Shown here: piece after piece, positions 7,094 to 36,729 of the stretch
How the letters are laid out: every line of letters starts with the position of its first letter
Numbering within the stretch: the first letter of the stretch is position 1
Origin: a virus
IMG/VR virus record: IMGVR_UViG_3300049259_000177
Span: 50,595 to 114,594 of that record
Strand: one strand, 5' to 3'
DNA: 64,000 nucleotides
Notes under the pieces: generated by a model
Told to the model about the DNA's origin: nothing
Seen by the model: only the letters and a program-made list of their open reading frames with translations
Database searches by the model: none
Translations under genes and position numbers: made by a program

Positions 7094-7494
7094 GCCACCA
7101 CCCGCACCGAGCGCTGGGTGGCCTTGAGGACGCTCACGACCCGCTTCACGCCACTACTGCCGTCACCGGTGAGGTGTGCGGGGCGCGGCACCTTGCGAGG
7201 CTTCTTACGCCGCATATCCGCCGCCAGCACCGACACCTCCTCGATCAGTTGCGCCAGCAGTTCCGTGTTCAGCGTCCAGCGGTCGAGGCTGCGGTCTTCG
7301 GGCTTGGTGCGGACCAAGGCATCCGCAGGCAGCCCTCGGACGTAGACGATCAGCCGTCGGACGCCGATGAAGCCTTCCTGGTCCGGGTCTTTCCAGACGC
7401 CCCGGAGGTCGACCCCGGGGTAGTGGTGAGCGAAGTCTGCTTCGAGGTCCCCTCCCCGCTCGTCGACGAGTCGGAGGACTGCAAGGCTTCCCCC
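7090..7494 (-). CDS. Tail assembly chaperone, -1 frameshift extension (gpGT-like)
   Basis: The -1 frame after GGGGGAA (7494-7488) reads GSLAVLRLVDERGGDLEADFAHHYPGVDLRGVW..RRLIVYVRGLP..WTLNTELLAQL and is open to the stop at 7090. Confidence 0.85.
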   Translation of the reverse strand, partial: GGSLAVLRLVDERGGDLEADFAHHYPGVDLRGVWKDPDQEGFIGVRRLIVYVRGLPADALVRTKPEDRSLDRWTLNTELLAQLIEEVSVLAADMRRKKPRKVPRPAHLTGDGSSGVKRVVSVLKATQRSVRVVA

Positions 7495-17861: not shown

Positions 17862-20800
17862 TTACTCGCTAGCCCTTGACGCGAGGAACGACTTGGTCTC
17901 CGCCGCCCGGCCGCGCAACGCCTCGATGTCGATGGTCTCGCCGTCGCCTGCACCCTTCGTGACGACCGCGCTCGGCGCGTCCGTTGGGGGCGTCGTCAAC
18001 GCATCCGGGTTGGAGTCGCCCGAAGCGTCAATCGAGACACCGGCCGCCTTGAGTACCGCGACGAGATGCTCGACGGCCGCACGCAGCCGCTCCTCGTTCG
18101 CGCCGGACAGCACGCGACCAGCCTTAACCTCGGCTGCGAAGTCGTTGGCGATCTGCACCGACAGCGCAACCTGCTCGATGCTCTTGAGCGCGCCGAGCAC
18201 GAGGTACTGCGGGCCCGGTGACGTTTCGTCCTCGCCGTCGTCCGGTTCGTAGTCGTCGTTCTCGTCGCCGGTGCTGGTCGAGAGCACCTCGGCGGTCACC
18301 TCGATGACGACGGGCAGCGGTGGCCCGAGAGTGACCGAGCCGTCGCCGTTGACGTTGTAGGTCAACTCGTAGGTCTCGCTCTTGCCGTCGTTCGGTCCGC
18401 TGTACGCGCACCGGCGTGCGATGACGCGGTCGTCGTAGGTGCCGACAACCTCGACGTAGTTCCATTCGCGGCGCGGCGGCCCTGCGTCCTCGCCATCACC
18501 GGACGGGATCTCGTCGCCGCGCAGTTGGTCGTTGAGCGTCCGGCGTAGCGCGTCCTGAGTAGCCTCGAACGACCCGGCGAGGAATGGATACTGCTTCGCG
18601 TCGACCGCCATGTCCGCACCTACCGCCTTCGTCGAGGCGTACTCGCCGATCTCCGCCTCGGGCATCCATGTGTCGAGCACGTCACTCGACTGCGGATGCT
18701 CAATCGGCGCCGGTCCGGCCGCGCCGCGCTGGCGCAGTGCGGCGAACGCCTTGGCCTGCTCGCCGTCCATGTGCTTGCCTGCGATCTCGACGGCGCGGTC
18801 GTAGGCGCCGTCCTCGTTCCAGCGGATCAGCGCTGCGCCGCCGCCGCGTTCGTACCACTGCACGAGTTGCTTGGCGCGGCGCTGATCTTCGACAGGGAAT
18901 GCCTTGAACTCCTCGATCGCGTCAAGGTCGTCCTTGGTGACGTTCCACTCCTCCGGCAGCATGTCGACGGCGTCGATGGCGCGCGCGCGGCGGACGATCC
19001 AGCGCTTTACCTTCGGCTTCTCCTCGTCCTTCGCGCGCCCATACGCCTGGATCGCGTTCTTGAGGTCGTCGCGGTTGCCGATCGGATAGGGCTCGCGGTT
19101 GTCGCCAGCAGACACCGGCATCGTCGGCTTGCGGTGACGGCTAGCGGCGGACATCTTCGCGGCGATCAGACCGCCGGTGCCTTCGAGGTCGGGGATCTCG
19201 ATGGTTCCGGCTTCGGCCTCGGCGAGCAGGGCCTTACCGGCGTGCGACTCGGCCTTTTTCTTGTCCCACTCAGCAACGGCGGCACATGCGGCGGCCTGGG
19301 CTTCCTTGCTGACCTTGACCTTGCCGCCGAACGCGCGCCCGGTGGCGCACATCTTTTTGCACCAGTTGACGGCGGTGGCGACGGCGACCGACTCGGGGCG
19401 ACCCTTGTCGATGAGGTGGTGCGCGACCCGGCGCATGAGCATCGGCAGGCCGCCGACTTTCTTCACCCAGTTGTTGCCCTCGCCCAGCGGCGCGCGGGTG
19501 GACGCCGTGCCGGTCGGGTCGAACTTGGCCTCGGTGAGCACGATTGCGACCCAGTCATCGACGTCGGCCAGGATCGGCACGCGCCACTCGTGGCTATCGA
19601 GTGCCTTGACCTCGTCGTCGTCGGCCCACTCCTCGACGCCGACCTCACCGAACGCCTCGGCAAGTGCTTCGGGGGTGATCGAGGGCGCCATCTCGGCCAG
19701 TTCCTTGCGGACGATCTCCGCGACGCGCAGTCCGGCGACGGCATCCTCAACCTCGTCGAGATCGAGACCCTTGAGACCCTCCTCATGCAAGAACCGCTCG
19801 AACGCGGCTTCGACGTCTTCGTGCTCGTCGGCCATCGCGGCGAGCCGTGACTTGACGGCAAGCGTCCCAGATAGCGGCGCCGCGCCGAACAGCACCGGGC
19901 TGTACTCGAACAGTTCGAGTTCCTTGATGTGGCGGATGCCTTCCTTGTCGCGCACGCCCTTGCCGTCGGGCACGTGGTAACCGATCGACCACTCACACTC
20001 GCCGGTCTCGGAGAAGAACTTGACGTTCTCGTACGCGTCGCGGCCCTCGCGACTCTTGAGGTTGAACCGCATGCGCACGTAGAGCGCGCCCGCCGCCTTC
20101 GGCCACGGCTGGCCGTCCTTGGTCTGGTCCGGCAGCCGGGGGTCGCCCGGCATCCACTCTTCGACGGCCTCGGTGCGCGCTACCCAGCGCCCCCAGTCAT
20201 GAGAGTTGCCGGTGAAGTAGACCGACCCGTTGCGCCGGGCCAGCCACGTACCGGACGGAGTGGTCGGGCACCAGACGACGCCGTCGTGCGTCGTGAACAC
20301 GTCCTGTCGGGCGACACGCGGCGGCTTGCCCGTCCGCTTCGCCTCCGCGATTGCGGCCAGTGGCTCGCAGGTGTTCCGGCGCAGCATCGTGACCGTGTTG
20401 CACGGGTTGTCCGGGTAGTGGCGGTTGGTCGAGGTGCGACACGTGTTCGTCGGGATACCGGCAAGGGCGCACGCCATCTCGAAGGCGCGCAGGCCGTGCT
20501 CGCTGCGCTGCGCCCAGCGGGCCGTGCCGCTGGCCTCGACGTGGCCGTCCCCGTCCATGCAGGTGTCGATGAGCAGGTGGAGTTGTGCGGCGGTCAGGGA
20601 GCACAGGAACTCCGGCAACGGGGCATTGCCCTCGCCGAGCACGGCCGCCACGGCCTCCGTCGGTCCCTTGTTGAGCCGGAACTCCATGCCGCGACCGTTG
20701 TTGCAGCGGTGCTCGTGGAAGCCGCCGGGGAACGCGGCGGTCAGCGCGCGGCGGATCGAGGCGCACTTGAGCGGGTTGACCGCGATCGACTGCGCGATTG

Positions 20801-21467
20801 TCAGGCGCGGTGTCGATACCGCGTTGCTCTGCGGGCCGAGGTGTCCCTCGTTCCACGCCCAGGCGACGACCTCGACGAACGCGTCCGACCACTTCGCTTC
20901 AACCGGCGCTTCGGTATTGGCGAGGCTGCGGATGATCCCGTCGTCGGCGTCCAGTTCGCGGGTGGTCCGCCAGGTGATCGCGTAACCGCCATCCGCGCTT
21001 TTGACGCGACGGCGTACCGGCCAGCGGTGGTCGAGCGTGGTTAGCGAGGAGAACCCGCTCGTCTCGATCAGCCGGACCTCGCGCGGTTCGGCGTCGAACA
21101 CATTGACGGCCAGCACCGGCTCGAACCGGGCCGTGAGCGTCTCAGGGTTGAGGGCGTAGGCGCGATCGGCGGCGGTCACCTCGTCGTAGCGGAGCCATCC
21201 GCGCTCGGTGAGGATCTCGGTCGCCTCGTCGGCACAGAAGACGCCCTTGGGCTTGCGCTTCGCCAGCGTCGCCTTGTAGGCGCCTGGAATGATGATGTCG
21301 TTGACTTCGTCCTTGATGCCGGTGACCGACACGAGCGCCTCGACGACGCCCGTCGAGTCGTTAGCAGCAACGAGGTCGGTGGTTGTCGCGTGGCTGGACG
21401 CTTTCTTCTCAAGGCCGGGGGGCGTGGTCGCCTCAGGTGCGTCGAGCACGCTGGTCCCCTGTCCCAC
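17862..21467 (-). CDS. HK97-type prohead protease with intein and long C-terminal extension
   Basis: D.VNDIIIPGAY, F|intein|SHDW, EWSIGY and ELELFEYSPVLFGA motifs; late KAGRVLS..NEERL segment. Confidence 0.9.
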   Translation of the reverse strand: MGQGTSVLDAPEATTPPGLEKKASSHATTTDLVAANDSTGVVEALVSVTGIKDEVNDIIIPGAYKATLAKRKPKGVFCADEATEILTERGWLRYDEVTAADRAYALNPETLTARFEPVLAVNVFDAEPREVRLIETSGFSSLTTLDHRWPVRRRVKSADGGYAITWRTTRELDADDGIIRSLANTEAPVEAKWSDAFVEVVAWAWNEGHLGPQSNAVSTPRLTIAQSIAVNPLKCASIRRALTAAFPGGFHEHRCNNGRGMEFRLNKGPTEAVAAVLGEGNAPLPEFLCSLTAAQLHLLIDTCMDGDGHVEASGTARWAQRSEHGLRAFEMACALAGIPTNTCRTSTNRHYPDNPCNTVTMLRRNTCEPLAAIAEAKRTGKPPRVARQDVFTTHDGVVWCPTTPSGTWLARRNGSVYFTGNSHDWGRWVARTEAVEEWMPGDPRLPDQTKDGQPWPKAAGALYVRMRFNLKSREGRDAYENVKFFSETGECEWSIGYHVPDGKGVRDKEGIRHIKELELFEYSPVLFGAAPLSGTLAVKSRLAAMADEHEDVEAAFERFLHEEGLKGLDLDEVEDAVAGLRVAEIVRKELAEMAPSITPEALAEAFGEVGVEEWADDDEVKALDSHEWRVPILADVDDWVAIVLTEAKFDPTGTASTRAPLGEGNNWVKKVGGLPMLMRRVAHHLIDKGRPESVAVATAVNWCKKMCATGRAFGGKVKVSKEAQAAACAAVAEWDKKKAESHAGKALLAEAEAGTIEIPDLEGTGGLIAAKMSAASRHRKPTMPVSAGDNREPYPIGNRDDLKNAIQAYGRAKDEEKPKVKRWIVRRARAIDAVDMLPEEWNVTKDDLDAIEEFKAFPVEDQRRAKQLVQWYERGGGAALIRWNEDGAYDRAVEIAGKHMDGEQAKAFAALRQRGAAGPAPIEHPQSSDVLDTWMPEAEIGEYASTKAVGADMAVDAKQYPFLAGSFEATQDALRRTLNDQLRGDEIPSGDGEDAGPPRREWNYVEVVGTYDDRVIARRCAYSGPNDGKSETYELTYNVNGDGSVTLGPPLPVVIEVTAEVLSTSTGDENDDYEPDDGEDETSPGPQYLVLGALKSIEQVALSVQIANDFAAEVKAGRVLSGANEERLRAAVEHLVAVLKAAGVSIDASGDSNPDALTTPPTDAPSAVVTKGAGDGETIDIEALRGRAAETKSFLASRASE
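20205..21236 (-). mobile_element. Intein (344 aa) with LAGLIDADG-type endonuclease in the prohead protease
   Basis: Begins CADEATEILTERGW; block B TLDHRW; ends VVWCPTT..GTWLARRNGSVYFTGN|S; AWAWNEG and CMDGDG motifs. Confidence 0.9.
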
Positions 21468-23646: not shown

Positions 23647-24300
23647 TCACGTAAGCGACTCCCACTCAACGATCTCGTAGCGGCCAAAGCCCTGCGACCG
23701 GGAGGCGCCGACGCCTTGCTGCTCGCCGGTCAGCCAGAGCATGCCCCACCTGTCGCGGGTGAGTTCCTCGGAGTCGGTGACGACGGTGAACGACACCTTG
23801 GCGTCGGTGACGTACTCCTCGTACTGGATGCCGGTGCCGCGCCAGGTGTGCACGAAGCGCTGGTTGATGCCAGACGCCTCGACGACACCGAGCGGGATCG
23901 TGTCTTCGACGACGAACACGTGCTCGGCGAAGTAGGACAGCGTGCCCTTACGACTCGGCCCCCAGCGGTCCTTAGGCCACCGGACGTTCGCGGCTTCCTT
24001 GATCGCGGCCTTCACCTGACGACCTTCGATGTAGAGCCCGTCGGCGTTGCGCTTGAACCCGTTGAGGTGCTTGAGACTGTCGACCTCGGCGATCGCTTCC
24101 TCGGCGGGGATGCCGCGCTCGGCCATCGTCGTCGCGACCATCTCGCGGATCAGGTCGTCCTTGTCGGCCATCTTCGTGCGTAGCCAACCCTCGGCGACCT
24201 TCGGGTCAGTTGGCACGCCACCGGCGAGCGTCGCGACGAGCAACGTCGCCCGGAAGCGATGCGGGTAAGCCTGCTCGCGCAGGTCATCGAACAGGGACAT
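23647..24300 (-). CDS. Stand-alone RAMP/Cas7-like RNA-binding protein (217 aa)
   Basis: ACAGGAG RBS at 24309-24315. Has F.ATL.....LAGGVP, YIEGRQVKAAIKEAA and a C-terminal Gly-rich loop GVGASRSQGFGRY, all RAMP hallmarks. Confidence 0.8.
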   Translation of the reverse strand: MSLFDDLREQAYPHRFRATLLVATLAGGVPTDPKVAEGWLRTKMADKDDLIREMVATTMAERGIPAEEAIAEVDSLKHLNGFKRNADGLYIEGRQVKAAIKEAANVRWPKDRWGPSRKGTLSYFAEHVFVVEDTIPLGVVEASGINQRFVHTWRGTGIQYEEYVTDAKVSFTVVTDSEELTRDRWGMLWLTGEQQGVGASRSQGFGRYEIVEWESLT

Positions 24301-24317
24301 CGTGGCGGCTCCTGTGG

Positions 24318-24638
24318 CTAGTCGGATGGGATGGGGAGGGCGGCCGAGGCGTGGGTGGGGGAGTCGGGCCGAGGCGGGCTGGGGTCGGCGGGGCAGGGGT
24401 GGGTCGGGAAGTCGGGCTGGGGCTGGGGAGACACGGGAAGTCGGGCTGGGTGGGGTCGGGAAGACGTGCGGTGCAGCGGGCAGGCATGGGTGGTCGGAGC
24501 GGGAGAGGGACGGGCTGGCGAGGAACGGGTAGGCGCGGGCAGACCTGGGTGGTCGGACGCGGAGAGGGCCGAATAGGGCGGGGTCGGGAAGGCATGTCGG
24601 AGTGGGAAGGGCGGGGAAGCCTAGCCTTGGGAAGTCAG
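24318..24638 (-). ncRNA. Pentamer-periodic guide-like repeat array (CC-NNN units punctuated by CCGAC), 7 units
   Basis: Eight CCGAC/CTGAC-NNN delimiters (plus-strand starts 24318, 24360, 24408, 24437, 24490, 24549, 24593, 24631) enclose 51 near-pentamers. By manual count 40 end in GG on the plus strand. Confidence 0.8.
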
Positions 24639-25165
24639 GCGGCCTTGCCGACGATGCTGCGGTACATCGCGTCGTACTCCTCCTCGGTAAACACCTCCTC
24701 GGTGCGTCGGTCTCCGACGCGCTTGGCGACTGCCTTGTGGAACGCCTCGCGCATCTTCGCGACCGCTGCCGTCTCGTGATAGCGGCTGGCGACGTACATG
24801 TGGTCCGCACCGGTCATGTCGCCGACGCGGCGCCTCGTTCCGCCGTCGTCGATGGCGTAGACGACAGCGAAGTGGCTGAGCGCAGCGAGGTCACCACTGC
24901 CGACCGCGTCCGCGAAGGCACGTGGCTGCCGCCGGGCGAGAGCGGTCGAGCGGTCGTGGCGTAGCGCCAGCGAGAGATCCGACGTCAGGTAGCGGGCGGC
25001 ATTGTCGGTCAGCCACGCCGTCAGTACCTCCGGGTTGCTGGCGCGGAGATCTCGGATGGCCTAGTCAGCCACGACGGCAGGCACGAAGTCGCCATCCGGG
25101 CGGGCGGCGTCGATTGCTGCCTGGATCGCGGGTGGGAACATGCCGTCTCCGTTCGGGGCGTTCAT
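24635..25165 (-). pseudogene. Accessory gene of the RAMP locus (176 codons) with an in-frame amber at 25061-25063
   Basis: ATG 25165 lies 6 nt after TAGTGT (leaderless -10). Reads MNAPNGDGMFPPAIQAAIDAARPDGDFVPAVVAD*AIRDLRASNPEVLTAWL... and stays open to TGA 24635, which overlaps the first array delimiter. Confidence 0.7.
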
Positions 25166-25259: not shown

Positions 25260-27162
25260 TCACACGGCTCGGAGGTTGCCCCGACGGCCCGTTGCCGGGC
25301 GTGAGGCGCTCTCCTGCCAGTCCTCGGCGAGCGGGCCGGGGTCCAGCACCTTGCGAGCACGAGTAACGGCGACGTAGCGCAGCCGCAGTTCTTCCGGTGA
25401 CGGTTCCTTGACCTCGCCGTCCTTGCCGGGCTTGGCCTCGAAGTCGTCGCCGATGCGGACGTTCTCCCACTCCCTGCCCTTCGCTTTGTGCGCGGTGGAG
25501 ACGATCAGCGTGGCCGACGCCTCGGTGACGGCGCCGTCGAGCACGCCGAGCAGAGTCGGGCAGGAGAACTCGTTGATGAGCCGGACGAGGACCGCGAGGT
25601 CACTGCCGTCCGGGTCGCTGTCGACGTACTCCTCGACCATCGACCACGAGGTGAACAGGCTCAACTCGGGGAACGTCGTCGAGCCGTTGTCGATCAACTC
25701 CTGCGCGCCACGGATGAAGGCGCTCATCTGCTTGCCGCCGCCGACGAGGTGCACCGACGTGCCGTCGCGCTGCGCGTCGAGCGCGACCTTGAGGGCGCCC
25801 GCGTTGGTCCGGCACAGCACCGCGTCCGGCTTGTCGAGCGCGGCGACGGTGGAGAGGATCTGCGTGGTGCCCTTGATTCGCAGCGGGGTGTCCAACTGCG
25901 ACAGGAAGCGGTTGGCCTCGGTGGCGATCGCCGGGCCGAAGCGGAACGACTGCGAGAGGTAGAGCACCTCGACGCCGGGCTCGCGGGAGAAGATCCCCAT
26001 CGCGTCGATCGCGCCGCGCCACTCGTAGATGGCCTGGGCGCGGTCGCCGACGAAGACGCGCTGGCAGTGGGTCTGGCGGGCGACAACGCTCGCGATGACC
26101 GGGTCGGCGTCCTGCGCCTCGTCGAACAGGATGAAGTCGACGTCGAGGCGCGGGTTGCTCAACTGCCACATCTCCCTGCGACTCGGCGCGGCGACGGATG
26201 CCGAGCGTGTTGCCCTGCGTGCGCGTACGCCAGGTGGTCCGTCCGATCCGGTAGTCGTCCCCCCGTCGGGCGAGGTACACGACGTGGTTGCCGTCGGTCA
26301 GGTCGGCGTCGAGGCGCACCACGCACCGGTGTTCGGCCGTGTATGCGCTCGTGCGCCCGCGAGAGGTCGTCGCCCGCACGAGATCGCCGTCGTAGTGGCG
26401 CTGGCCGACCGCTGTGACCTTGCGGCCCTGACGGCGGATGGAACCGAGCCTGCTCGCAGCCGGGGTCCACGACATCACGTAGTCGCCTTCGCGGAGCGTC
26501 TCGATGGGCACCTCCTCGAACGACGAGCCGAGGTGGCCGCCACGGCTCACCACGCGGCGTACGAGCGTCCCGGTGGGCTGGCAGTCGTGTTGGAAGCGCA
26601 GTTGACCGTCGGTGTCGTTCAGGTCGGCCCACGCCTTGCGGGCGAACGGGACAAGGTGGCGGGCGAGTTCGCGGTGGTTGGCGCCACGACGTTTGGTGAC
26701 CTCGCCTTCGAGGCCCTCGATGAATGGCATGTGCGTGACGTCGATCTCGCGGTCGGCGGAGGAGCAGAACCGGGCGACCATCTGCATCGTGTAACGGGCG
26801 AGCACGTCCTTGGTGACGGTCTTCTCGCCGACCCGGATGCCCTCGTTGATGCCGATGATCTTCGCGGCTTGCCAGGCAGGGACGCGGGCGTTGGAGCGCA
26901 GCCGATGGGCGTAGGTGCGGCCGACTGCCTTCATCGCGTAGGAGTGGGCCGTCCCGCAGACCATGTTCGAGGGGAAGGTCTGCTTCGCCTCACCGGCGAT
27001 CGCGGCGTTGTAGGCGATGTACATGCCTCGGCGGCTCGGGGTAGCGCTCGCCATCAGTTTCAGTGTCGAGGTCTTTCCGGTGCCTGCACCGGCCTCCACG
27101 ACGATGTTCTTGCGAGCGCGGAAGGCATCAACGATGGCCTGCTGCTCGGTGGTCGGGTTCAT
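25260..27162 (-). pseudogene. UvrD/Rep-like SF1 helicase split by a truncated intein and a frameshift
   Basis: N-part: PTTEQQAI, AGAGTGKT, TAHS. C-part, in another frame: ILFDEAQD, VGD.AQAIYEWRGA, LSQSFRFG, STAHKAKGREW, YVAVTRA. Confidence 0.85.
26172..26583 (-). mobile_element. N-terminal fragment of an intein (C-terminal half missing)
   Basis: HD|CQPTGTLV...VPIETLREGDYVMSW...YTAEHRC (blocks A and B). No terminal HN; the frame breaks at 26172. Confidence 0.8.
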
Positions 27163-27180
27163 TGCCCTGTCTCCTGTCCG

Positions 27181-27236
27181 GCGGGTCGCTCTCCCGCACA
27201 ACCAAGACCGTACACCCGCTTAGCGTGAGAGCGCAA
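27181..27236 (-). promoter_or_regulatory. Early-type promoter with operator and hairpin (UvrD)
   Basis: TTGCGC-N5-CGCTAAGCGGGTG-TACGGT, then GCGGG-AGAGCGA-CCCGC. Confidence 0.75.
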
Positions 27237-28012: not shown

Positions 28013-28225
28013 TCACGCCCCCCGGAGACGCCGCGCCTCTGCAAGCAGCGCGGGTGGAGCGGCGGAGCCGAACGGGAGGTCGAGGACGCGCGCAGCAGCG
28101 GTGGCCTGGTCTACGCCGAGTGCGCGGGCCAGGTCGTCGAGGGTGGCTACTGGGCCACCGCCGGGCAGTCGCACGTCCCAGGACAGTGTCTTGATCCAGT
28201 CCTCGTTGCCCGTGGATTGCGTCAT
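28013..28225 (-). CDS. Small protein coupled to the MuF giant (candidate immunity protein)
   Basis: ATGA overlap with the 28222 stop; 70 aa, MTQSTGNEDWIKTLSWD. Confidence 0.6.
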   Translation of the reverse strand: MTQSTGNEDWIKTLSWDVRLPGGGPVATLDDLARALGVDQATAAARVLDLPFGSAAPPALLAEARRLRGA

Positions 28226-31200
28226 GCCGCCACCCGCAAGCGGGGGGTGCGTTCGTCGCCCGACTGGTTCCACGCGCTGACCCGCCATTCACCCGGTCCG
28301 GCAAGCACGACGAACTCGCTCGCCGTCAGGTCACCCATGCCTGAGCGCGGCATCGACAGGATGCGCGTGGCGGGCACTGTTCCCGCCAGCACCACGCCGA
28401 CCCCCTCCGAGGTGTCTGCGAACTGCTGGGCGGCGCCACGATCCGCCGAGAACGACGACAACGGACGCATGTCGATGCTTGTCGTGGTCCCGTGTGTTGC
28501 CCACACCGGGGCGGGGGGAAAGTCTTCCTCGGGCACGTCGGCTGGGTCCGAGAAGTGCATCCCGCGATACAGGGTCACCTGTGTGATGCCCGCTGCCGCC
28601 AAGCGAGCCTGCGTCTCCTCGTACTGCGCGCGGAGGAAGGTGCGCAGAACCGCCTCACGCTCTGCCTTGATTGCGTCGACCCTGGTTCGCACATCGGCAC
28701 CTAGTGTCCACGGCGCCGCTCCCGGTAGGCCGAACTCGTCGACCGCAATCTCCTGCAACGCGAGGGCGTCCGCGTCGCTGTCGTTGGAGGTCATCGACCA
28801 GCGCTGGACCAGCCTCGACACGGCATCGCGCCGTAGGGCGGTGCGGACGGTTTCATCGCCCGGCTCGAACTCGCCTGCGGCGTCGGAAAAGAACTCGACT
28901 GTGCCGTCGTCAGCGGTCTCGCTGGACCAGCGCGAGCCGCTAAGGCTGGCGACCGTGTCCTGGCCCAGCAGGGACGCGTCCGGCACGGTCACCATCCGGG
29001 CGGCGATGGCCGCATACACCTCCGTCTTGGCCTGGGTGCGCGCTTGCTCGCCATCCGGGCTGAGGTTCAGGTCGGCCGGATGCGCCGCTGTTCCGAGACC
29101 GGACGATAGAAGTGCCTGCACCGAGGGATCGAGCGGTGCGCCCATACCGATGTAGTCGACCGGAACGGCGACTGCCGGTTCGACCGATCCCGGCGTTGCC
29201 CCCGGCCGGTTAGGGCCGGGGGCCGCTGCTAAAGGGGTTGCAGCACCGCCTCCGGTGACTGCGAACGAACCGCCGAGGTCGCTCGTGATGCGGACCTCGC
29301 CGTACTGGCCGGTGACGGTGCGCGCTCCGGCGACCCCCCGGCTCTTGCTTGGCGGGTTCGAGTCGCGGCCAAGGCTCGCGAGGGTGCCGAACATGAAGTT
29401 GCGCATGTCCTCGTCGAGATAATCGCTTCCGCCGAACAGCGATTCGATGCCAGTAGTGAACACCTCGTGCGCGTCGCCCCGGCCGTAGTCCTTGCCGGTG
29501 TAGTGGCTCTTGAACTTGTCCTTGCGGCCGACTTCCTTCGGGCCCGAGTAGATCCGCGATACGGTCTCGCGGCTGCGGGCCCCGACCGCCCCGGTGGAGG
29601 TCCGCGACCACAGGAACGCATCCTCGGCAGCGACGAGGCCGGGCACGACCCGCTCCATGTGGTGCCCGAGTTCGTGCACCGCGACCTTATTCTTCTCGTC
29701 CGGACTGCCGCCGGAAATGGCGATCTCACGCGTGGCGACGGCGTAATGGCCGCGCGCGGTACCACGTACCTTGAACGCGCCGAGAGACCGCGCTCGCTCG
29801 GCGGTCAACCAGTCGCTCGGGTACCACTGCTCGGCCCACCGCAGTGCTTTCACGCTCTGCGCACGCTCGCCGGTCGAGTAGGCCATGCCGCCGCCGGGCG
29901 GCGTGCCGACCGGCCGGATCTCGCGCAGCACGTCACGCGCCGCGTTGGCGCGTGCCTCACGGATGCGGACCTTAGCCTCCTCGCGCTGGCCGCGTGTCGT
30001 CATCCACATCTCGCGCTGAGCCTCACGGCGGCGGTTCAAGCCTTCGAGCGCGCCGCCGGGCTCCTCGGCGGCGACAAGCGCGTCGCGCATCTCGTTGCTG
30101 ATCGCGGTGAGCCGCTGATATTCGGCAACGTCGTCACGTGAATCGGCGCCGGTGCGCGAGGACTGGTCGATGAAGTGCCGCAACAGCGAGACGCGGTTGC
30201 GCAGGTTCCGTTCGTCCGGCGCACCGGAGATCTCGGATCCACGTCCCTCGTCCCAGGCACGGTCGAGGAACGGCTGGGCGACCTGCTTGCGGACATCGCG
30301 TGCGTCGCGGTCGAGTTGCGTCATCGACTTGTACGCCGCGTCGCTCTGCTGGTCGAGGCCCTCGATGTAGCGCTCCGGGTTTCCGCCCATATCCGGCAGT
30401 GCTTCGGCGAGACGGCGACCGTACTCCTCCTGCATCGCGGCGCCGACCTGGCGCAGTGCATGCAAGTGACGCATCGCCGTCTCGCCCGGGCCGTCATCGG
30501 CGGCGCGGTCGGCTACATGCTGGTTCTCGGTGATGATCTCCGGAGTCTTGCCCGCTTCGAGGTCGGCGAGGGTGAAGTCACCGAGGGTCGAGACCTGCAT
30601 CTCGCGCTGGCCGAACTTGTCCGGGTCGGACGGCAGCATCGCCTGCCATGCGGCGACGCGATCCTTCCAGTCCCCGCCGGGTTCCGGAAGTGCCTCGTCC
30701 GGCTTGTTCGCGTCGATGCGGTCACCACCACCTGCGAGATGATCCGCCGCCTCGTTCGTCAACTGCTGCGCGCGCCCGTCGATGATGTCCTGCGCGCGCG
30801 AGTCGGGCCCGGTCGCCATCCGGTCGAACAGTGCGCCGAGGCTCTCGGAGTACAGCGGCGAGTTCGTGCCCGCGACCGTCGTCTTCGAGCGCATCTCGGC
30901 AAGGGAGTCGGTGAGCGCGTTGCGGTACGCCTCGCGCACCATCGTGTCGGCGTTCTTGCGTAGCGACGCGGTGCGGCCCGCGTCCTGGCCGAAGGACTGC
31001 CCGGCGATGACGGCCGCCGCCCAGCGCGGCGACGGCTGGAAGTCGCCCTGCTGGACGAGCCGCGCGAGCGGGACGCCGTCCCACTTGTTCGCGAGAGTCG
31101 GCAGCGCGCCGCCGGACTTACCGAGATCGCTGTCGAGATGCGTCTTGAACTTCTCTAGTGCTTCCCGCCGGGCACTGAGTAGCGCATTGCGTACGCGCTG

Positions 31201-34200
31201 CTCGGCGGCCGCTCGCTCCTCGTCGGTTGGCACGTAGGTGAAGGTGCCGACATTCGCGCTCTTGAGTGCCGTCTTCGCGCGTGCAAGCGGCAGCATCGCC
31301 TCGGTGTAGTCGACCGTCGGCGGATTGCTCCGGATCTGCTCCATGACGCGGCCGACCATCTGGTGGTCGGCTTCGCCATCTAGCGGCTTCGCATCGGCGA
31401 GCGCGTTGCGGATCACGTCGTACTGGCGCGTCAACGCTTCGGAGACTATCGACTTGCTGCGGTCACCGAGCGAGTTGGCGATCGCGCGTCGCGTCGCGGA
31501 GTCGAGGTTGATGCTGCGTGGGGTCAGTTCGGAGTTCAGGTCATTGACGGCGTAGCCGTATCCGTTGACGGCAGTGCGGCGGTCACGGTGCTGTGCATCA
31601 AAGACGGCATCGAGAATCCAGCCACGGCCGTTGCCTTGCGCGAGGCTGATGTCGGTGAGCATCGCGGCACGCTGGTCGTTGAGCGCGCGGGCGATCGCCA
31701 TTGCCATGATGTTTGCGGAGCGGTGCGTCTCGCCGTCCTGGCGTTGCTGTTCCAACGCCTCAGCGGCACCGGGTTCGCGCGAGAGTAGTACCGGCTTGAC
31801 GTCGCCGTCGTAGACCGTGTGGGTGTACCACGCTCGCTGGCCGTCCTCTTGTAGACCGATCTCGGTGCCCGCGATGCTCTTGCCGGTGCCCTCGTCGAAG
31901 CCCTCCGTCGGTGAGACGTTGTGCACGGTGCCGACGAACTCCTGGCCGGTCGTCGAGTTGGTGATGCGGATGCGGTCGCCGACCTGGATCTCGTTGTGGT
32001 TGATCGCCTTCTCGCCCTGGCTCTTGTCGGGCTTCTCATCGACGATCGGCTTGGGGTCCGGCGGCTGCGGGTGAATCCATACCGACCGGCCGCCCACGTA
32101 GTTGTCGGCGCGTATACCGTCGGCGGTCTCGACGTGCACCTCGATGGCGCCCCTGATGGCACCGACATTGCGGCTGCGCCGGACACGCACCACCTTGCCT
32201 GTGACGTCAAGGCTAGACGGGTCGACACCGAGCGCCTTCGCGGTCGCCTCACTGCCCGGGATGGTGACGTACATGCCCGCGCTTATCTGCGAGATCGTGC
32301 CGAGTTGCGACTTCGAGTCATCGGCCGTCGGATCGCCCTCGACCGGGTCGGGCTGGACCGTGGGGTCCTCGGCCGGGCCTGCGTCGACGGCGAGGTTAGT
32401 GCCGCGCATCACCGACACGTTGTGCGCGCGCCCGGCCGCGTCCGTGACGGCGAAGTTGACGATACGTCCGCCCTGAGAGCGCGTGGTCTCGGTTACCTTG
32501 CCGTAGACGTCACCGAAGCGAGCCCACTGCCCGGCCTGCACATCGTGTGCGCGAGTGCCTTGCCCGCCGCCGTGCAGCAGGTGGTTGTCGAGCGCGTCGA
32601 AGGACAGTGCGGCGCGGTTGAGCGCACCGGCGCGACGCGTGCCGGACCGTTGCGCCTCGTCGCGCAACGCGGCAGCCATTGCCTGTGCCTCGTTGCGGTT
32701 GAGCGACTGGTAGTTCAGCAACTTGTGTGCCGCGTTCCGCACCTGCGGGTCGGCGTGCGTCTTGTGCAGTTCGTAGCCGTGGATCATTCGGCGCTGGTAG
32801 GTGCGCAGCGCGACGCGCCCGGTCGGCTGCGGCCCGGGCGGGGCGGGCGTGAACGGCTGTACCTCGATGGCAGTGCCGAATGGCATCGTCTCCTCTTCGG
32901 CCGCGCCCTGGCGGCGGTAGGTGAGGTTGACGATGTCGCCGTTCTCGCCGTACGGCTCGGCGTTGGCGATCGTGACCGGCGTCGGCTGGCCGAGCGGCAG
33001 CATGACGGTGTCGCCCGCCTGCAACTCCCCTACCGTTCCGGGCTGGCGCGGCCCGGGCGACGGCTGCGGGTTCGGTCGCCGGTCGATCTCCGCCGGGGTG
33101 ACCAGCATCGTTGGGTCGGCGTACAGCGAGTCCTTCGTGCCATCCGGGTGTGTGTAGTCGACGCGGATCATGTCGGGCTCGTCATCGTCGCGGCCGACCG
33201 CGTCGACGTGCGCAGCGACGTCGCCCTGCGGGCCGGGTAGCATGACGTGGTCCCCCGCCTTGAGGTCGCGAATCGCGACGTCAGCCGGGGGTGCCGACAT
33301 GACGGGTGCGTCGTCGCCAGGCTCGGAGACGACCGACAGGCCACTCGCGTCGAGGGTGTGCCAGTTGTCGCCGCCGTCAGGCGAGTAGTAGAGAGTTTGC
33401 AGGCTCAGCGTCGTGCCGTCCTGCAAGACCCCGTAGTCGTCGAAGATGTGCTGCGGCTCGACGTGGTTGTCCGGCGCGACCTCGTCGGCGACGAGGATGA
33501 GACCCGCCTGCGACCCAAGTTCGTCGAGTCGCGAGTCTTCCCCGAGTGAGTCTTCGTGCGCCAGGTTCTCGTCGGTGTAGGCGAACGAGTCGGCGGAGTC
33601 CTCGGGGTTGTGGGTGTCCGCATCGGCCCAGTAGCGCCCGGCCTGGCCGCCGAGGATGCCGTGAACGATCTCGTCGGCGGTGATGTCACCGTTGAGCATC
33701 CGGCGTGCGTACTCCGGCGGGACGTTGATGACCATGCCCCGGTTGAGGGTGCCCGGTGGGTAGCGGTCGGGCAGCACGTTCGTCGGCGTTCCTGGCACGT
33801 CAGTCTGTGGGGCCGGAGTGCTGGCCGGAACGGACTGCGGGCCACCGAAGCCGAACTCGTTGATGTCATTGCCGTCCCAGCGGATGTCACCGGCCCGCAC
33901 TCGCGTGCTGTAGACCGGCCAATCGTTCGCTGGGTTGTCGTCGTTGATGGCGTGCTGCTGGGCATAGGTCTGAGACAGTGTGACCCAGTCGCCCGGGTTG
34001 ATGTGCGTGACGCCCGGAGGCGCAGCGCGGTAGATGGTGACCAGCGCTTCCGGATTGCCGCGTGCGGCGCGAATCGCGGCCTCGGACTCGTCGTCGTAAC
34101 CCATCTCCGGGTCGCCGTACTTGTGGAAGTGCATGTTGTCGTAGAAGTCGGCACTCGTGACCATGCCTCCGCCGGAGTCGGTGGCGAGCAGGTTGTCCAG

Positions 34201-36729
34201 CGACGGCCCGTCGAGCGACGGCAGGTGGCTGCCCTGGTAGTCGGCGGCGTCCTGCGGCGAACCGGGGGCGACGGGCACGGCGCGCGTCGCGTCGCGCGCG
34301 TTCGCAACGAGGCGCTGCGTCACAGCATCATCCGGGTTCTGCTCGTCGAGCGAGTCGAGTGAGCCGGTGAGAGCGCCCTCGGCCTGAGCCTTGTCGTCCT
34401 CGTTGCCGTATGTCTGCGCGTCGGCGAAATCGCGCAGTGCGTCGGCAACCGCGACCCGGTAGGAGTCGTTCCCGTCACCCTCGAACTGCGCAGCAAGATC
34501 GTAGAGTCCGGCGGCGTCTTGCTCGGTCTGCGGCGGGGCGCCGCCGGGCGTTCCGCTATCGGTCGCCGGGACGACGCGAGTGTGGCGGGAGATAGCGCCC
34601 TGGTCGGTATTGACCGTGCCACCGCCGCCAGAGCCGCCGGTCGCACCGGTCGCACCGGTGATAGTGACGGTCTGGCCGTCTCGCGGGTGTCCGTCGTGCT
34701 GGATGGTGACACGCGCACCGACCGGATGGATACCCGCAATGGTCGGCGTGACCGCCTGGGGACCTCGTGCCACGTGCTCGGCCGCGAGCATGCGGGTGCG
34801 CTCATCCGGGGTCTTGTCGGGCTTGCGGGCGAGTCGCTGCGCCTCCGCCGTAGCCTCCCCGGGCGTCATGTCCGTGACGGCCTTGGGCTCGTGGCTATCC
34901 GTGACCCGTGGCCGGTCCTTCGCGGCCTTGAGAACGTCGATTGCCTGGCCGACTGTCGCGTCGTTCCACGCGCCCCGGTGGGCGTGCAGTTCGGCGGCGA
35001 GGTCCGGGTGGTTCGGCTTGACGACGTCGTCGACGAGGCCGGACAGATGGCCGGTCTGCTTCGACGTCGCCTGGCGGGTGCCAGCATGACGTGGGCCGTT
35101 GCGGATCGAGCGGTTGGCGTTGACGACGCGATGCGTCGCGTACTCGTGCGGATCATGGGTGATGCGTTGGTGCATGAGTGCGGCGCGCAGGTTCGCCTCG
35201 TTCGTGCCGATGAGGTCACGGCCCGCCTTGAGGACGGCGGCGCGGTTCGGGTGGTCGGCGGGTAACTGTCGATCGGTCATGGCGTGCGCGTCGTGCGCGG
35301 CGGCGAGCCGTCGCTCACGGACACCGACGTCGCTCGCAGCCCGGGCGATGTCGGCAGCGTGTTGGGCGTCGAGGGGCTGTGGAGCCTGTCCCACCGTCTG
35401 CCGCAGGTGCGCAATGTGGTCGGCGTGCGCCGCGCTCTCGGGCGGTGCGCCGACCGCGTGCGGGTGATGGCTGTCCGGCGCGGCTGGGTCGGTGTGTGAC
35501 GGCATCAGTGGGTGGTCGGGACGGCTTGCGACCCGCTTGCCAACCTTGCTGACGTCACCGTGCGGGGCGCCGCCGCCGCCTGCCTTCGTGACCGTGACGT
35601 CAGTGCGGCTGACCGTCTCGGTCTTGCCGTTGGCGTGCTCGATCTGCACGTGGTTGCGGTCGACGACGTTGAGGACCTTCGCGACGTCACCGGCCAGGGT
35701 GCGAACCTCGCCCCCTTTGGAGATGAACTTGCCGTGCCGGTCGCGGGGATGCTCGTCAGGCTTCCACTCGTACGACGCGGTGCCTACGCGCACCGTCGTG
35801 TAGCCGGTGTGCGTCAACTTCATCTCGATCGTCTTGCCTTCCCGCGACTGAGGCAGGAACTGGCCGGTGCGCTTCGAGCGCCAGTCCACTCGACAGCGGC
35901 AGTTGGCAGTTTCCCGGTACGGCGCACGCGGGTCTCCGGGGAAGCGCAGCAGGGCGCCGCCAACAGTGAACGGGGTACCGAGCGGCTGCTCCTGGCCGTC
36001 GGCTTTTGCGTGCGACGGCCGCACCTTCTCGTCGCGCCGCGAGCGCCAGCGGCGCAACACGTCGACCGACTGGTCGGCTTCCGCGATGTGGTCGGCGGCG
36101 GCCTGCCGGGCGCCTTCGACGGTCGCGGTAGCCGCCTGCACCGCGAGCCCCTTCGCCCACTCCTGCATCGCCGGATAGTGCGCGAGAACCGCCTCGCGGA
36201 TGGCGGGCATGTCGGCGCCGGACTGATCGAGAGAGTTGATGAGGTCGCCGAGCAACTGGATCTGCCGGGCGGCCGACTCGGCGATCAGCGCGAGAACCGT
36301 CTCGACGATCCCGGCGGTGATGAGCGCGAGCATCGAGGAGTCCGGCTCCTGGTCCTCGCCGGACAGCGCAACGTAGAGTGCGGCGGCGGCGGCGATCGCA
36401 GCCGGGGAGATCACCGGCTCGCTCGCCGACTGGGCGTCGTCAGGCGCGGCTTCCTCGTCGGTCGCCTTCGCGGCGTCCAGCGCCTTGGTGCCAACACGGG
36501 TGTCGTGCTCGTACTCGGGCACCCAGTGGCGGGTGCCCTTACGTTGCTGCGGGCTCTCGACGCGGGTTATGGTCCGGTCCACCCAGCGCGAGGCGAGATG
36601 GCTCAGCGCAGCAGCCAGTGCGGCTTCGAGGCGGTCGCGGTCCTTGTCGTCGGGAGTGTAGGTCTGCCAGGACTCGACGGCTTTGGTGCGGATGGGAACG
36701 ACGCGTAGTCCGATCGGTTGTGCGGTCAC
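28222..36729 (-). CDS. Giant MuF (minor head) polyvalent protein with zincin peptidase and ADP-ribosyltransferase-like domains
   Basis: Directly after portal. MuF: RWRSRRDEKVRPSH..ADGQ...PGDP...ETANCRC. Also HPRDRHGKF; VTIYRA...GDWVT...NEFG; AVHELGHHME...HEVFTTG; C-terminal TLYRG...PLSSFS...SEFVVL. Confidence 0.85.
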   Translation of the reverse strand: MTAQPIGLRVVPIRTKAVESWQTYTPDDKDRDRLEAALAAALSHLASRWVDRTITRVESPQQRKGTRHWVPEYEHDTRVGTKALDAAKATDEEAAPDDAQSASEPVISPAAIAAAAALYVALSGEDQEPDSSMLALITAGIVETVLALIAESAARQIQLLGDLINSLDQSGADMPAIREAVLAHYPAMQEWAKGLAVQAATATVEGARQAAADHIAEADQSVDVLRRWRSRRDEKVRPSHAKADGQEQPLGTPFTVGGALLRFPGDPRAPYRETANCRCRVDWRSKRTGQFLPQSREGKTIEMKLTHTGYTTVRVGTASYEWKPDEHPRDRHGKFISKGGEVRTLAGDVAKVLNVVDRNHVQIEHANGKTETVSRTDVTVTKAGGGGAPHGDVSKVGKRVASRPDHPLMPSHTDPAAPDSHHPHAVGAPPESAAHADHIAHLRQTVGQAPQPLDAQHAADIARAASDVGVRERRLAAAHDAHAMTDRQLPADHPNRAAVLKAGRDLIGTNEANLRAALMHQRITHDPHEYATHRVVNANRSIRNGPRHAGTRQATSKQTGHLSGLVDDVVKPNHPDLAAELHAHRGAWNDATVGQAIDVLKAAKDRPRVTDSHEPKAVTDMTPGEATAEAQRLARKPDKTPDERTRMLAAEHVARGPQAVTPTIAGIHPVGARVTIQHDGHPRDGQTVTITGATGATGGSGGGGTVNTDQGAISRHTRVVPATDSGTPGGAPPQTEQDAAGLYDLAAQFEGDGNDSYRVAVADALRDFADAQTYGNEDDKAQAEGALTGSLDSLDEQNPDDAVTQRLVANARDATRAVPVAPGSPQDAADYQGSHLPSLDGPSLDNLLATDSGGGMVTSADFYDNMHFHKYGDPEMGYDDESEAAIRAARGNPEALVTIYRAAPPGVTHINPGDWVTLSQTYAQQHAINDDNPANDWPVYSTRVRAGDIRWDGNDINEFGFGGPQSVPASTPAPQTDVPGTPTNVLPDRYPPGTLNRGMVINVPPEYARRMLNGDITADEIVHGILGGQAGRYWADADTHNPEDSADSFAYTDENLAHEDSLGEDSRLDELGSQAGLILVADEVAPDNHVEPQHIFDDYGVLQDGTTLSLQTLYYSPDGGDNWHTLDASGLSVVSEPGDDAPVMSAPPADVAIRDLKAGDHVMLPGPQGDVAAHVDAVGRDDDEPDMIRVDYTHPDGTKDSLYADPTMLVTPAEIDRRPNPQPSPGPRQPGTVGELQAGDTVMLPLGQPTPVTIANAEPYGENGDIVNLTYRRQGAAEEETMPFGTAIEVQPFTPAPPGPQPTGRVALRTYQRRMIHGYELHKTHADPQVRNAAHKLLNYQSLNRNEAQAMAAALRDEAQRSGTRRAGALNRAALSFDALDNHLLHGGGQGTRAHDVQAGQWARFGDVYGKVTETTRSQGGRIVNFAVTDAAGRAHNVSVMRGTNLAVDAGPAEDPTVQPDPVEGDPTADDSKSQLGTISQISAGMYVTIPGSEATAKALGVDPSSLDVTGKVVRVRRSRNVGAIRGAIEVHVETADGIRADNYVGGRSVWIHPQPPDPKPIVDEKPDKSQGEKAINHNEIQVGDRIRITNSTTGQEFVGTVHNVSPTEGFDEGTGKSIAGTEIGLQEDGQRAWYTHTVYDGDVKPVLLSREPGAAEALEQQRQDGETHRSANIMAMAIARALNDQRAAMLTDISLAQGNGRGWILDAVFDAQHRDRRTAVNGYGYAVNDLNSELTPRSINLDSATRRAIANSLGDRSKSIVSEALTRQYDVIRNALADAKPLDGEADHQMVGRVMEQIRSNPPTVDYTEAMLPLARAKTALKSANVGTFTYVPTDEERAAAEQRVRNALLSARREALEKFKTHLDSDLGKSGGALPTLANKWDGVPLARLVQQGDFQPSPRWAAAVIAGQSFGQDAGRTASLRKNADTMVREAYRNALTDSLAEMRSKTTVAGTNSPLYSESLGALFDRMATGPDSRAQDIIDGRAQQLTNEAADHLAGGGDRIDANKPDEALPEPGGDWKDRVAAWQAMLPSDPDKFGQREMQVSTLGDFTLADLEAGKTPEIITENQHVADRAADDGPGETAMRHLHALRQVGAAMQEEYGRRLAEALPDMGGNPERYIEGLDQQSDAAYKSMTQLDRDARDVRKQVAQPFLDRAWDEGRGSEISGAPDERNLRNRVSLLRHFIDQSSRTGADSRDDVAEYQRLTAISNEMRDALVAAEEPGGALEGLNRRREAQREMWMTTRGQREEAKVRIREARANAARDVLREIRPVGTPPGGGMAYSTGERAQSVKALRWAEQWYPSDWLTAERARSLGAFKVRGTARGHYAVATREIAISGGSPDEKNKVAVHELGHHMERVVPGLVAAEDAFLWSRTSTGAVGARSRETVSRIYSGPKEVGRKDKFKSHYTGKDYGRGDAHEVFTTGIESLFGGSDYLDEDMRNFMFGTLASLGRDSNPPSKSRGVAGARTVTGQYGEVRITSDLGGSFAVTGGGAATPLAAAPGPNRPGATPGSVEPAVAVPVDYIGMGAPLDPSVQALLSSGLGTAAHPADLNLSPDGEQARTQAKTEVYAAIAARMVTVPDASLLGQDTVASLSGSRWSSETADDGTVEFFSDAAGEFEPGDETVRTALRRDAVSRLVQRWSMTSNDSDADALALQEIAVDEFGLPGAAPWTLGADVRTRVDAIKAEREAVLRTFLRAQYEETQARLAAAGITQVTLYRGMHFSDPADVPEEDFPPAPVWATHGTTTSIDMRPLSSFSADRGAAQQFADTSEGVGVVLAGTVPATRILSMPRSGMGDLTASEFVVLAGPGEWRVSAWNQSGDERTPRLRVAA

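What the first reader, a model, noticed from the sequence alone, without database searches (positions are those of the whole stretch)
24498..24551. Array unit decodes to the catalytic-tyrosine motif of tyrosine integrases (A-E-T-L-E/D-T-Y-A-H-L-W)
Seen: the plus-strand unit is aGCgg gaGAgg gACgg gCTgg cGAgg aACgg gTAgg cGCgg gCAga cCTgg gTG. The variable dinucleotides give GCn GAn ACn CTn GAn ACn TAn GCn CAn CTn TGn. Using the third variable base as wobble gives GCG GAG ACG CTC GAA ACG TAC GCG CAC CTG TG, i.e. AETLETYAHLW, with TAC and CAC correctly specifying Tyr and His. One 6-nt pentamer has to be accommodated. Established: actinobacterial phage/ICE tyrosine integrases end in LGHxxxx[E/M]TLDTYxHLW/F, where Y is the nucleophile. 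Inference: this guide targets the most conserved coding stretch of rival integrases, in codon register, so it could tolerate synonymous changes. No integrase is present in this window.
Basis: partly seen in the sequence, partly recalled or inferred. Interest (0 to 1): 0.95.

Follow-up and report, generated by a model that had tools for sequence, protein, structure and literature searches.

The report
Phage VIPR guide aimed at integrases
One unit of a five-base-phased guide array in this actinobacterial phage spells, by the recently published VIPR "read two, skip one" code, the active-site tyrosine motif of a family of bacterial integrases, so the phage probably uses it to shut down rival mobile elements.

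Summary
The unit at 24496-24551 lies in a 320-nt array between two minus-strand genes. One is a 217-aa Cas7-like RAMP (Foldseek/VIA, Z 9-10.8). The other is a small helper gene. In 24 related phage arrays a C stands at every fifth base (82-87%), two variable bases follow it, and GAC punctuates the units. This matches VIPR systems (Vipr + vap + vrRNA; bioRxiv 10.64898/2026.04.26.720920 and .720927), where the variable dinucleotides read DNA and skip every third base.

The 11 dinucleotides of this unit give GCnGAnACnCTnGAnACnTAnGCnCAnCTnTG. Exact matches were 17 in genome contigs and 27 in metagenome contigs. A dinucleotide-order-shuffled control gave 0. All 44 are in frame and read AETLDTYAHLW at the catalytic tyrosine of PF00589 integrases, in Pseudonocardia, Acidimicrobiia and other Actinomycetota. 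The phage record itself has no integrase.

The guide's third base does not track the target's wobble base, so it is a skipped base, not a wobble reader. A guide shared by two sister arrays spells the HELGHLV(L/M)H motif of ImmA/IrrE regulators. Which strand is the RNA, whether it is expressed and whether it silences are untested. This scan had already noted the same C-phased VIPR variant on other DNA.

The parts
24496..24554 (-). The guide unit in question. GAC punctuation (24554-24552) is followed by 11 five-base repeats (one of 6 nt). Their leading dinucleotides are CA AG TG GC TA GT TC AG GT TC GC. The reverse complement reads GC GA AC CT GA AC TA GC CA CT TG.
   Evidence: Sequence and unit parse. 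Exact in-frame matches to the integrase Tyr box: 17 + 27, against 0 for the shuffled control.
24301..24637 (-). The whole pentamer-phased array, about 11 GAC-delimited units. Most are short or irregular. It is C-rich on the gene-sense strand and runs from the helper gene's stop codon to the RAMP gene's ribosome-binding site.
   Evidence: Composition and period. Arrays of the same kind stand at the same place in most related loci.
23647..24300 (-). vipr-like gene: a 217-aa lone Cas7/Csm3-like RAMP with a C-terminal G-loop GVGASRSQGFGRY.
   Evidence: AlphaFold2 pLDDT 80.8. Foldseek top hits are type VII Cas7 and Csm3, E 6e-7. VIA Z 9-10.8, and all top 50 are Cas7-type. The family has more than 1450 members. 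No Pfam or PHROG hit.
24638..25165 (-). vap-like helper gene (176 codons), interrupted by an in-frame TAG at 25061-25063 where homologues have Leu.
   Evidence: Translation. Conserved upstream partner of the RAMP gene in 29 of 46 loci. Alignment. Helical model with no PDB fold match.

Best explanation
The locus is a VIPR-type phage system: a lone Cas7-like Vipr protein, a vap-like helper gene and an array of short guide units built from five-base repeats. In the published mechanism one Vipr protomer binds each repeat, hides the three fixed bases and presents the two variable bases. These pair with double-stranded DNA while every third target base is skipped. The unit at 24496-24551 carries 11 such dinucleotides. 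Together they specify the codons A-E-T-L-D-T-Y-A-H-L-W, the box around the catalytic tyrosine, of one family of actinobacterial tyrosine integrases that sit with an excisionase-like gene on integrative elements. Because the skipped base falls on the wobble position, one guide fits many synonymous versions of the motif. The phage has no integrase of its own. It most likely uses this guide to sit on the integrase gene of resident rival elements and block its expression. Any truncated product would lack the nucleophile, which would hinder excision or integration of those elements during infection. Shown here: the array grammar, the RAMP fold, the exact in-frame targets and the controls. Inferred: expression of the guide, which strand is the RNA, binding, silencing and the benefit to the phage.
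For: RAMP fold of the 217-aa protein. Strict 5-nt phase with two variable bases in 24 arrays. Conserved helper-array-RAMP cassette. Published VIPR code and structures. Exact matches to the 22-base pattern: 17 in genome contigs and 27 in metagenome contigs, all in frame as AETLDTYAHLW. My estimate of the chance expectation in 596 Gb is about 0.07 or less. The shuffled-order control gave 0. In 301 genomes of one family there were 7 hits at up to 2 mismatches, all this motif, against 2 for the reversed control; two of the 7 are in unpublished genomes G280 and G128. The targets are PF00589 integrases, usually next to an HTH_17 excisionase-like gene. There is no integrase and no self-match (best 15/22) in the phage record. 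The third base behaves as a skip base. The match stops at the GAC boundaries (sequence). As independent support for the same code in this clade, a guide shared by sister arrays L007 and L009 spells HELGHLVLH and HELGHLVMH. These are the two commonest natural forms of the ImmA/IrrE motif (44 and 43 of 119 hits; Pfam PF06114 + HTH).
Against: No RNA or binding data exist for this clade. The fixed bases on the gene-sense strand are x-Y-C, not the published GGY. There is no 3' tail or pseudoknot. Sequence similarity to the reference SUSP1 Vipr is weak (hhalign E 0.035). The helper gene carries a stop codon, and most other units of this array are short or irregular, so the locus may be decaying. No other guide of this or sister arrays matched the integrase loci above shuffled controls. 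The pattern has no hit in IMG/VR viral contigs. The host of the phage is unknown, so contact between guide and target is not shown. The elements carrying the integrase are heterogeneous, and in the stretches examined they are not obviously phages or satellites.
Confidence: 0.75

Rival explanations
1. The guide acts on integrase mRNA rather than on DNA. If the C-rich sense strand is the RNA, it is complementary in the gapped register to the integrase coding strand and hence to its mRNA. It could then block translation or trigger decay.
For: The decoded target is the coding strand. Published cryo-EM shows that the Vipr filament can pair with single-stranded RNA targets.
Against: In the published system RNA targets give mostly incomplete filaments, natural targets lie on both strands, and silencing works on DNA. 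No nuclease is seen in the cassette.
Confidence: 0.1
2. This is a decaying relic: a once-functional VIPR cassette that no longer works in this phage. The integrase match is then a fossil of past conflict.
For: In-frame TAG in the helper gene. Only one long regular unit among about 11. The neighbouring helicase is split over two frames.
Against: The Vipr gene is intact and 60-75% identical to many relatives. The guide keeps 11/11 dinucleotides matching present-day genes. In the published system vap only enhances the effect. The stop codon could be an assembly error in a metagenomic record.
Confidence: 0.12
3. The match is coincidence and the array is only a cis element, for example a Vipr-binding leader or a Rho-loading C-rich tract that controls the downstream gene.
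For: C-rich, G-poor RNA is typical of Rho loading sites (general knowledge). The array sits directly before the RAMP gene's ribosome-binding site. 9 of 38 related loci have no array at that place.
Against: 44 exact in-frame matches against 0 for the shuffled control, with a chance expectation of about 0.07 or less. A second clade guide matches another catalytic motif, with covarying variants. Loci without an upstream array can carry arrays elsewhere.
Confidence: 0.03

Closest known systems
VIPR systems (Vipr + vap + vrRNA). The reference is type II of Escherichia phage SUSP1 (bioRxiv 10.64898/2026.04.26.720920, 10.64898/2026.04.26.720927, 10.64898/2026.10.15.759431).
   Same: Lone single-RRM RAMP with a G-loop, an adjacent small accessory gene and phage-borne arrays of five-base repeats with three fixed and two variable bases. 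Natural targets fit the 1-nt-skip rule, lie in coding sequence with the skip on the wobble base, and belong to rival mobile elements.
   Different: On the vipr-sense strand the fixed bases are x-Y-C (last C 82-87%) rather than GGY. In SUSP1 the YNNGG repeats are on the vipr strand. Units here are short (mostly 5-8 repeats) and are separated only by GAC, without the conserved 3' tail or pseudoknot. The array sits between vap and vipr. In a low-confidence alignment the SUSP1 residues that hold G1 and G2 (D177, W178) are A and S here, while R179, which holds Y3, is kept. The target class, an integrase active-site box, does not appear in the preprint text I read or searched.
Non-canonical VIPR repeat variants: NNNGG, YNNNG and NNNNG in 10.64898/2026.04.26.720920; GAC/NN, CAC/NN, WGT/NN and TGH/NN in 10.64898/2026.10.21.760802.
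   Same: Five-base phase next to a Vipr-like fold, with a fixed motif that departs from GGY. Read on the G-rich strand, this array is NNNGG-like.
   Different: No C-phased motif or GAC-punctuated short units appear in the parts of those preprints I read or searched. Whether this clade is among their types could not be checked, because figures and data tables are not held.
Type III / type VII CRISPR-Cas backbone (Csm3, Cmr4 and Cas7 filaments on crRNA).
   Same: Best structural matches of the 217-aa protein (Z 9-10.8). It has a RAMP G-loop and presumably binds one protomer per repeat.
   Different: The phase is 5 nt, not 6. There is no repeat-spacer CRISPR array and no Cas5, Cas6, Cas10, Cas11 or adaptation genes nearby. 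The target is read in a 2+1 gapped register rather than 5+1.

Membership tests
VIPR system | Lone RAMP (Vipr) with an RRM core, G-loop and thumb, without other cas genes | tested here: met
   AF2 model pLDDT 80.8. Foldseek E 6e-7 to type VII Cas7 and Csm3. VIA Z up to 10.8, with all top 50 rows Cas7-type. G-loop GVGASRSQGFGRY. Neighbouring genes have no cas-family hits.
VIPR system | Detectable homology to a characterised Vipr (SUSP1) | tested here: inconclusive
   hhalign of the family profile against SUSP1 Vipr gives E 0.035 and probability 1.4%. The alignment is colinear over 118 columns, including helix 1 and the G-loop. The solved Vipr entry (36pp) is in the sequence copy of the PDB but not in the fold library.
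VIPR system | Adjacent accessory gene (vap) | tested here: inconclusive
   A conserved gene of about 175 aa lies directly upstream in 29 of 46 loci. It is helical with no known fold. Identity with vap1-6 could not be checked. The copy here has an in-frame TAG.
VIPR system | Tandem five-base repeats with a fixed trinucleotide and a hypervariable dinucleotide | tested here: met
   Autocorrelation peaks at lags 5, 10 and 15. C is 82-87% at every fifth base, and the two following bases are near-uniform, over 24 arrays (17.6 kb).
VIPR system | Canonical GGY fixed motif on the strand of the vipr gene | tested here: not met
   The sense strand reads x-Y-C + NN. The opposite strand reads G(85%)-G(60%)-N + NN, with only 35% pyrimidine at the third place. 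In SUSP1 the YNNGG repeats are on the vipr strand.
VIPR system | Natural targets obey the 1-nt-skip rule, in coding sequence, with the skip on the wobble base | tested here: met
   44 of 44 exact matches are in frame and the skip bases vary synonymously. The shuffled control gave 0. A second clade guide matches the ImmA HExxH motif.
VIPR system | vrRNA is expressed, processed and bound by Vipr; the RNP binds DNA and silences | not testable with these tools
No promoter-like or terminator-like sites were found.
VIPR type II (SUSP1-like) | Repeat tract capped by a conserved structured 3' tail or pseudoknot; 9-16 repeats per vrRNA | tested here: not met
   Units are delimited only by GAC, and most have 5-8 repeats (11 in this unit). 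No conserved tail lies between units.
Tyrosine recombinase / phage integrase (the target genes) | PF00589 catalytic domain with a C-terminal LGH...Y box | tested here: met
   PF00589 at E 1e-19 to 8e-24 in five target ORFs. The match ends at profile position 168/172, and the context reads RLGHATAAETLDTYAHLW.
CRISPR-Cas (class 1) | Repeat-spacer array with long direct repeats, plus a multi-subunit cas operon | tested here: not met
   No Rfam hit in the window. No cas-family hits in the neighbours. The phase is 5 nt, not 6.

The most novel reading that the evidence does not exclude
The C-phased, GAC-punctuated arrays are sense-strand vrRNAs read by a Vipr lineage that kept the pyrimidine pocket but replaced recognition of the two guanines. 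That would make a distinct VIPR type. Its guides would be motif guides aimed at invariant catalytic codons, namely the Tyr box of integrases and the HExxH of ImmA/IrrE. One guide would then silence a whole family of rival integrative elements despite synonymous drift.
Probability: 0.45. Interest if true: 0.7.

Novelty: new variant of a known kind. Interest (0 to 1): 0.55.

Why it matters
VIPR was described only in 2026, and its natural targets are known for a few proteobacterial systems. This case is a clean natural example from an actinobacterial phage. An 11-dinucleotide guide matches, base for base, the active-site tyrosine box of 44 integrase genes from different species. It shows how skipping the wobble base lets one guide cover a protein motif rather than one DNA sequence. 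It also gives a directly testable prediction: the phage silences integrases and so blocks excision or integration of resident islands. If the RNA strand is confirmed, the non-GGY repeat would widen the known recognition grammar of Vipr proteins and the design space for programmable guides.

Tried and rejected
- Rfam gathering scan of the whole window: no family.
- Consensus promoter and terminator scan around the array: nothing on either strand.
- Phage GenBank collection: no DNA relative of the locus. Only one protein relative of the RAMP, in Microcystis phage Mae-JY09.
- The integrase pattern in IMG/VR viral contigs: 0 hits.
- All guides with 7 or more repeats from 24 arrays, searched against the 23 integrase loci. 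Those with 8 or more repeats and at most one irregular repeat were also searched against the phage record plus 46 VIPR loci. Nothing beyond this one guide stood above shuffled guides.
- Two long sister guides (13 dinucleotides each): 0 exact hits in viral contigs.
- The other units of this window's array have 8 dinucleotides or fewer, or are irregular. They are too short for an informative exact search.
- Extending the match across the GAC boundaries into neighbouring units fails on both sides (sequence inspection).
- Third base as a wobble reader: rejected.
- Helper protein fold: no PDB match.
- Five target-bearing genomes hold no Vipr homologue, which says nothing about the host.
- Preprint supplement search for actinobacterial types: nothing held.
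- Readings considered and dropped: a proline-rich coding region, because a period of 5 is incompatible with codons and no ORF is conserved; and iterons, a centromere or G-quadruplex DNA, because the strand bias, RAMP linkage and decoded targets are better explained by guide RNA.

Full report
**What is there**

The window is the right-hand 64 kb of a 114.6-kb IMG/VR virus record with about 68% G+C. The finding lies in a 337-nt gap (24301-24637) between two minus-strand genes. Upstream is a 176-codon gene (25165-24638) with one in-frame TAG. Downstream is a 217-aa gene (24300-23647). Neither has a Pfam or PHROG hit.

The gap is 54% C on the gene-sense strand and is the only such stretch in the record. 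G occupancy on the plus strand autocorrelates at lags 5, 10 and 15.

**The array is a conserved, rule-bound feature**

Relatives of the 217-aa protein are numerous: more than 1450 at E <= 1e-3, many 60-75% identical. 46 IMG/VR loci encode one. In most loci with enough upstream sequence, a C-rich stretch of 0.1-1.9 kb stands directly before the gene. 29 loci also show the upstream helper gene.

I pooled 24 non-redundant arrays (17.6 kb) and anchored them on CCGAC.
- Every fifth base is C in 82-87% of cases.
- The base before it is C or T.
- The two bases after it are close to uniform.
- Spacing between successive GAC marks is mostly 5n+3.

The grammar is therefore GAC, then n five-base repeats of the form NN-x-Y-C, then GAC. 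The unit in question is GAC (24554-24552) plus 11 repeats (24551-24496). One repeat has 6 nt and one ends in TC. The other units of this array are shorter or irregular.

**The protein**

An AlphaFold2 model built on 25 homologues (pLDDT 80.8) matches Cas7-type RAMPs. Foldseek gives E 6e-7 and probability 1.0 to type VII Cas7 and Csm3. VIA-align gives Z 9-10.8, with all top 50 rows Cas7, Csm3, Cmr4 or Cas7-11. The C-terminus carries a RAMP G-loop, GVGASRSQGFGRY, which is nearly invariant in the family. The helper protein folds as helices with no PDB match.

**This kind of system is published**

A note from this scan pointed me to the VIPR preprints, which I read. VIPR systems consist of a lone ancestral RAMP (Vipr), an accessory gene (vap) and vrRNAs made of YNNGG repeats.

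One protomer binds each repeat and hides GGY. The NN bases pair with double-stranded DNA while every third target base is skipped. Natural targets are mostly coding sequences of rival phages and satellites, with the skipped base on the wobble position. The outcome is transcriptional silencing.

**The decisive test**

The 11 dinucleotides give GCnGAnACnCTnGAnACnTAnGCnCAnCTnTG, with 22 specified bases.
- IMG/VR viral contigs: 0 exact matches.
- Genome contigs of 185,579 species: 17 exact matches.
- Metagenome contigs: 27 exact matches.
- The same dinucleotides in shuffled order gave 0 in the metagenome collection.

My estimate of the chance expectation for 596 Gb on both strands is about 0.07 with equal base frequencies, and lower at 70% G+C.

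All 44 matches are in frame and read AETLDTYAHLW, almost always within ...RLGHATAAETLDTYAHLWPDSDDRTR.... The ORFs are PF00589 integrases (E 1e-19 to 8e-24). The site lies at the end of the catalytic domain, where the tyrosine nucleophile sits. The named hosts are Pseudonocardia (9 of 17), Acidimicrobiia or Acidimicrobiales (3) and Nitriliruptoraceae (1). The other 4 are unnamed Actinomycetota or Actinomycetes MAGs.

In 301 genomes of the family of one hit, 7 carried the site with up to 2 mismatches. All are the same motif (variants TYSHLW and AITLDTY). The reversed-pattern control gave 2. Two of these 7, G280 and G128, are unpublished genomes. Only that count and the L071 row rest on them.

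Third-codon bases differ freely among the hits. The guide's own third base agrees with them no more than chance (4.35 of 10 against 3.3 +/- 0.8). It is A where all 17 genome-contig targets have C. So it is a skipped base, as published, not a wobble reader, and the true residue is Asp rather than Glu. The match does not continue past either GAC, so GAC bounds the guide.

The phage record has no PF00589 gene, and its best self-match is 15 of 22.

**What the targets are**

The integrases are 48-87% identical to one another. Where sequence is available they usually follow an HTH_17 excisionase-like gene. The cargo is not conserved.
- In one complete genome the element is only about 4 kb, between two transporter genes.
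- In a metagenomic contig the neighbours include a PIN-domain gene, an HTH gene and a UvrD-type helicase.
- Several hits are C-terminal integrase remnants.
- No tRNA gene lies in the nine loci scanned.

The targets are therefore integrative islands with an xis-int module. Their type (satellite, integrative element or prophage remnant) is unresolved.

**Independent support within the clade**

I decoded all units with at least 9 repeats and at most one irregular repeat (41 units). A guide shared by two sister arrays (L007, L009) stood out. It reads HELGHLVLH in one and HELGHLVMH in the other. The pattern has at least 119 hits in viral contigs. 44 read HELGHLVLH and 43 read HELGHLVMH. Three hit ORFs tested by Pfam are HTH + Peptidase_M78 (ImmA/IrrE) proteins, the regulators of lysogeny switches. 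The two guide variants thus track the two main natural variants of another catalytic motif of mobile elements.

**Which strand is the RNA?**

This is unresolved.

For the C-rich sense strand:
- In the main clade the arrays, whether before or after vipr, are almost always C-phased on the gene strand (13.2 kb against 1.5 kb). They abut the flanking genes, which suggests co-transcription.
- In SUSP1 the repeats are on the vipr strand.
- The base just 5' of NN is a pyrimidine, like Y3 of GGY.
- In a low-confidence alignment the SUSP1 residues that hold the two guanines (D177, W178) are A and S here, while R179 at the pyrimidine pocket is kept.

For the G-rich strand:
- It reads G-G-N-NN, close to the listed NNNGG variant.
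- Divergent loci L043 and L044 carry an inverted, G-phased copy upstream of vipr, so orientation is not absolute.

I put the sense strand at roughly two to one. The predicted double-stranded target is the same either way.

**Mechanism, rivals and verdict**

Most likely (0.75) this is a working VIPR guide. It places a Vipr filament on the Tyr-box codons of rival integrase genes and blocks their expression, which hampers excision or integration of resident elements. This step is inferred from the published systems. The rivals are:
- action on integrase mRNA (0.1);
- a decaying relic, given the stop codon in vap and the ragged array (0.12);
- coincidence with a purely cis-acting leader (0.03).

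The class of system is known, so this is a new variant: non-GGY phase, GAC-bounded short units and an integrase active-site target. This scan had already met the same C-phased variant on other DNA.

Noticed in passing
L007:4001-region array unit at offset 352; L009 unit at offset 149 (arrays upstream of the vipr homologues): Two sister phage arrays share a 9-dinucleotide guide that differs at one dinucleotide. The two versions decode to HELGHLVLH and HELGHLVMH, the two commonest natural forms of the ImmA/IrrE (Peptidase_M78) metal-binding motif in HTH-fused regulators of prophages.
   Followed up: yes
window 25061-25063 (minus strand, codon 35 of the 25165-24638 gene): The vap-like helper gene has a single in-frame TAG where homologues have Leu. 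It is either a real nonsense mutation or an assembly error.
   Followed up: partly
window 25260-27201 (minus strand): A UvrD/SF1-type DNA helicase is split over two overlapping frames. The N-terminal part is 27201-25600 and the C-terminal part is 26171-25260. Both match PHROG 1967. This could be a frameshift, an insertion remnant or an assembly error.
   Followed up: no
L043:1790-2440 and 3890-4430; L044:3530-3780 and 5260-5580: In a divergent subclade the vipr gene is flanked by an inverted (G-phased, GTCGG-punctuated) array upstream and a direct (C-phased) array downstream. A conserved spacer of about 150 nt lies between the upstream array and vipr. This bears on which strand is transcribed.
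   Followed up: partly
L022:5140-5970 and 6470-7170; L010:7390-7620; L029:6220-6780: Some loci that lack (L022, L010) or have (L029) an array between vap and vipr carry further C-phased arrays 1-3 kb downstream of vipr on the same strand.
   Followed up: no
window 17862-21467 (minus strand) and 28222-36729 (minus strand): A 1201-aa ORF contains a prohead serine protease domain (PF04586, PHROG 80) in its middle. A 2835-aa ORF lies upstream of the cassette. The VIPR cassette sits among head-morphogenesis genes.
   Followed up: no
L207:4873-11441: Next to one target integrase lie a PIN_3 gene, an HTH_17 gene and an 886-aa UvrD-type helicase. This suggests that some targeted islands carry defence-like or toxin-antitoxin cargo.
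   Followed up: no
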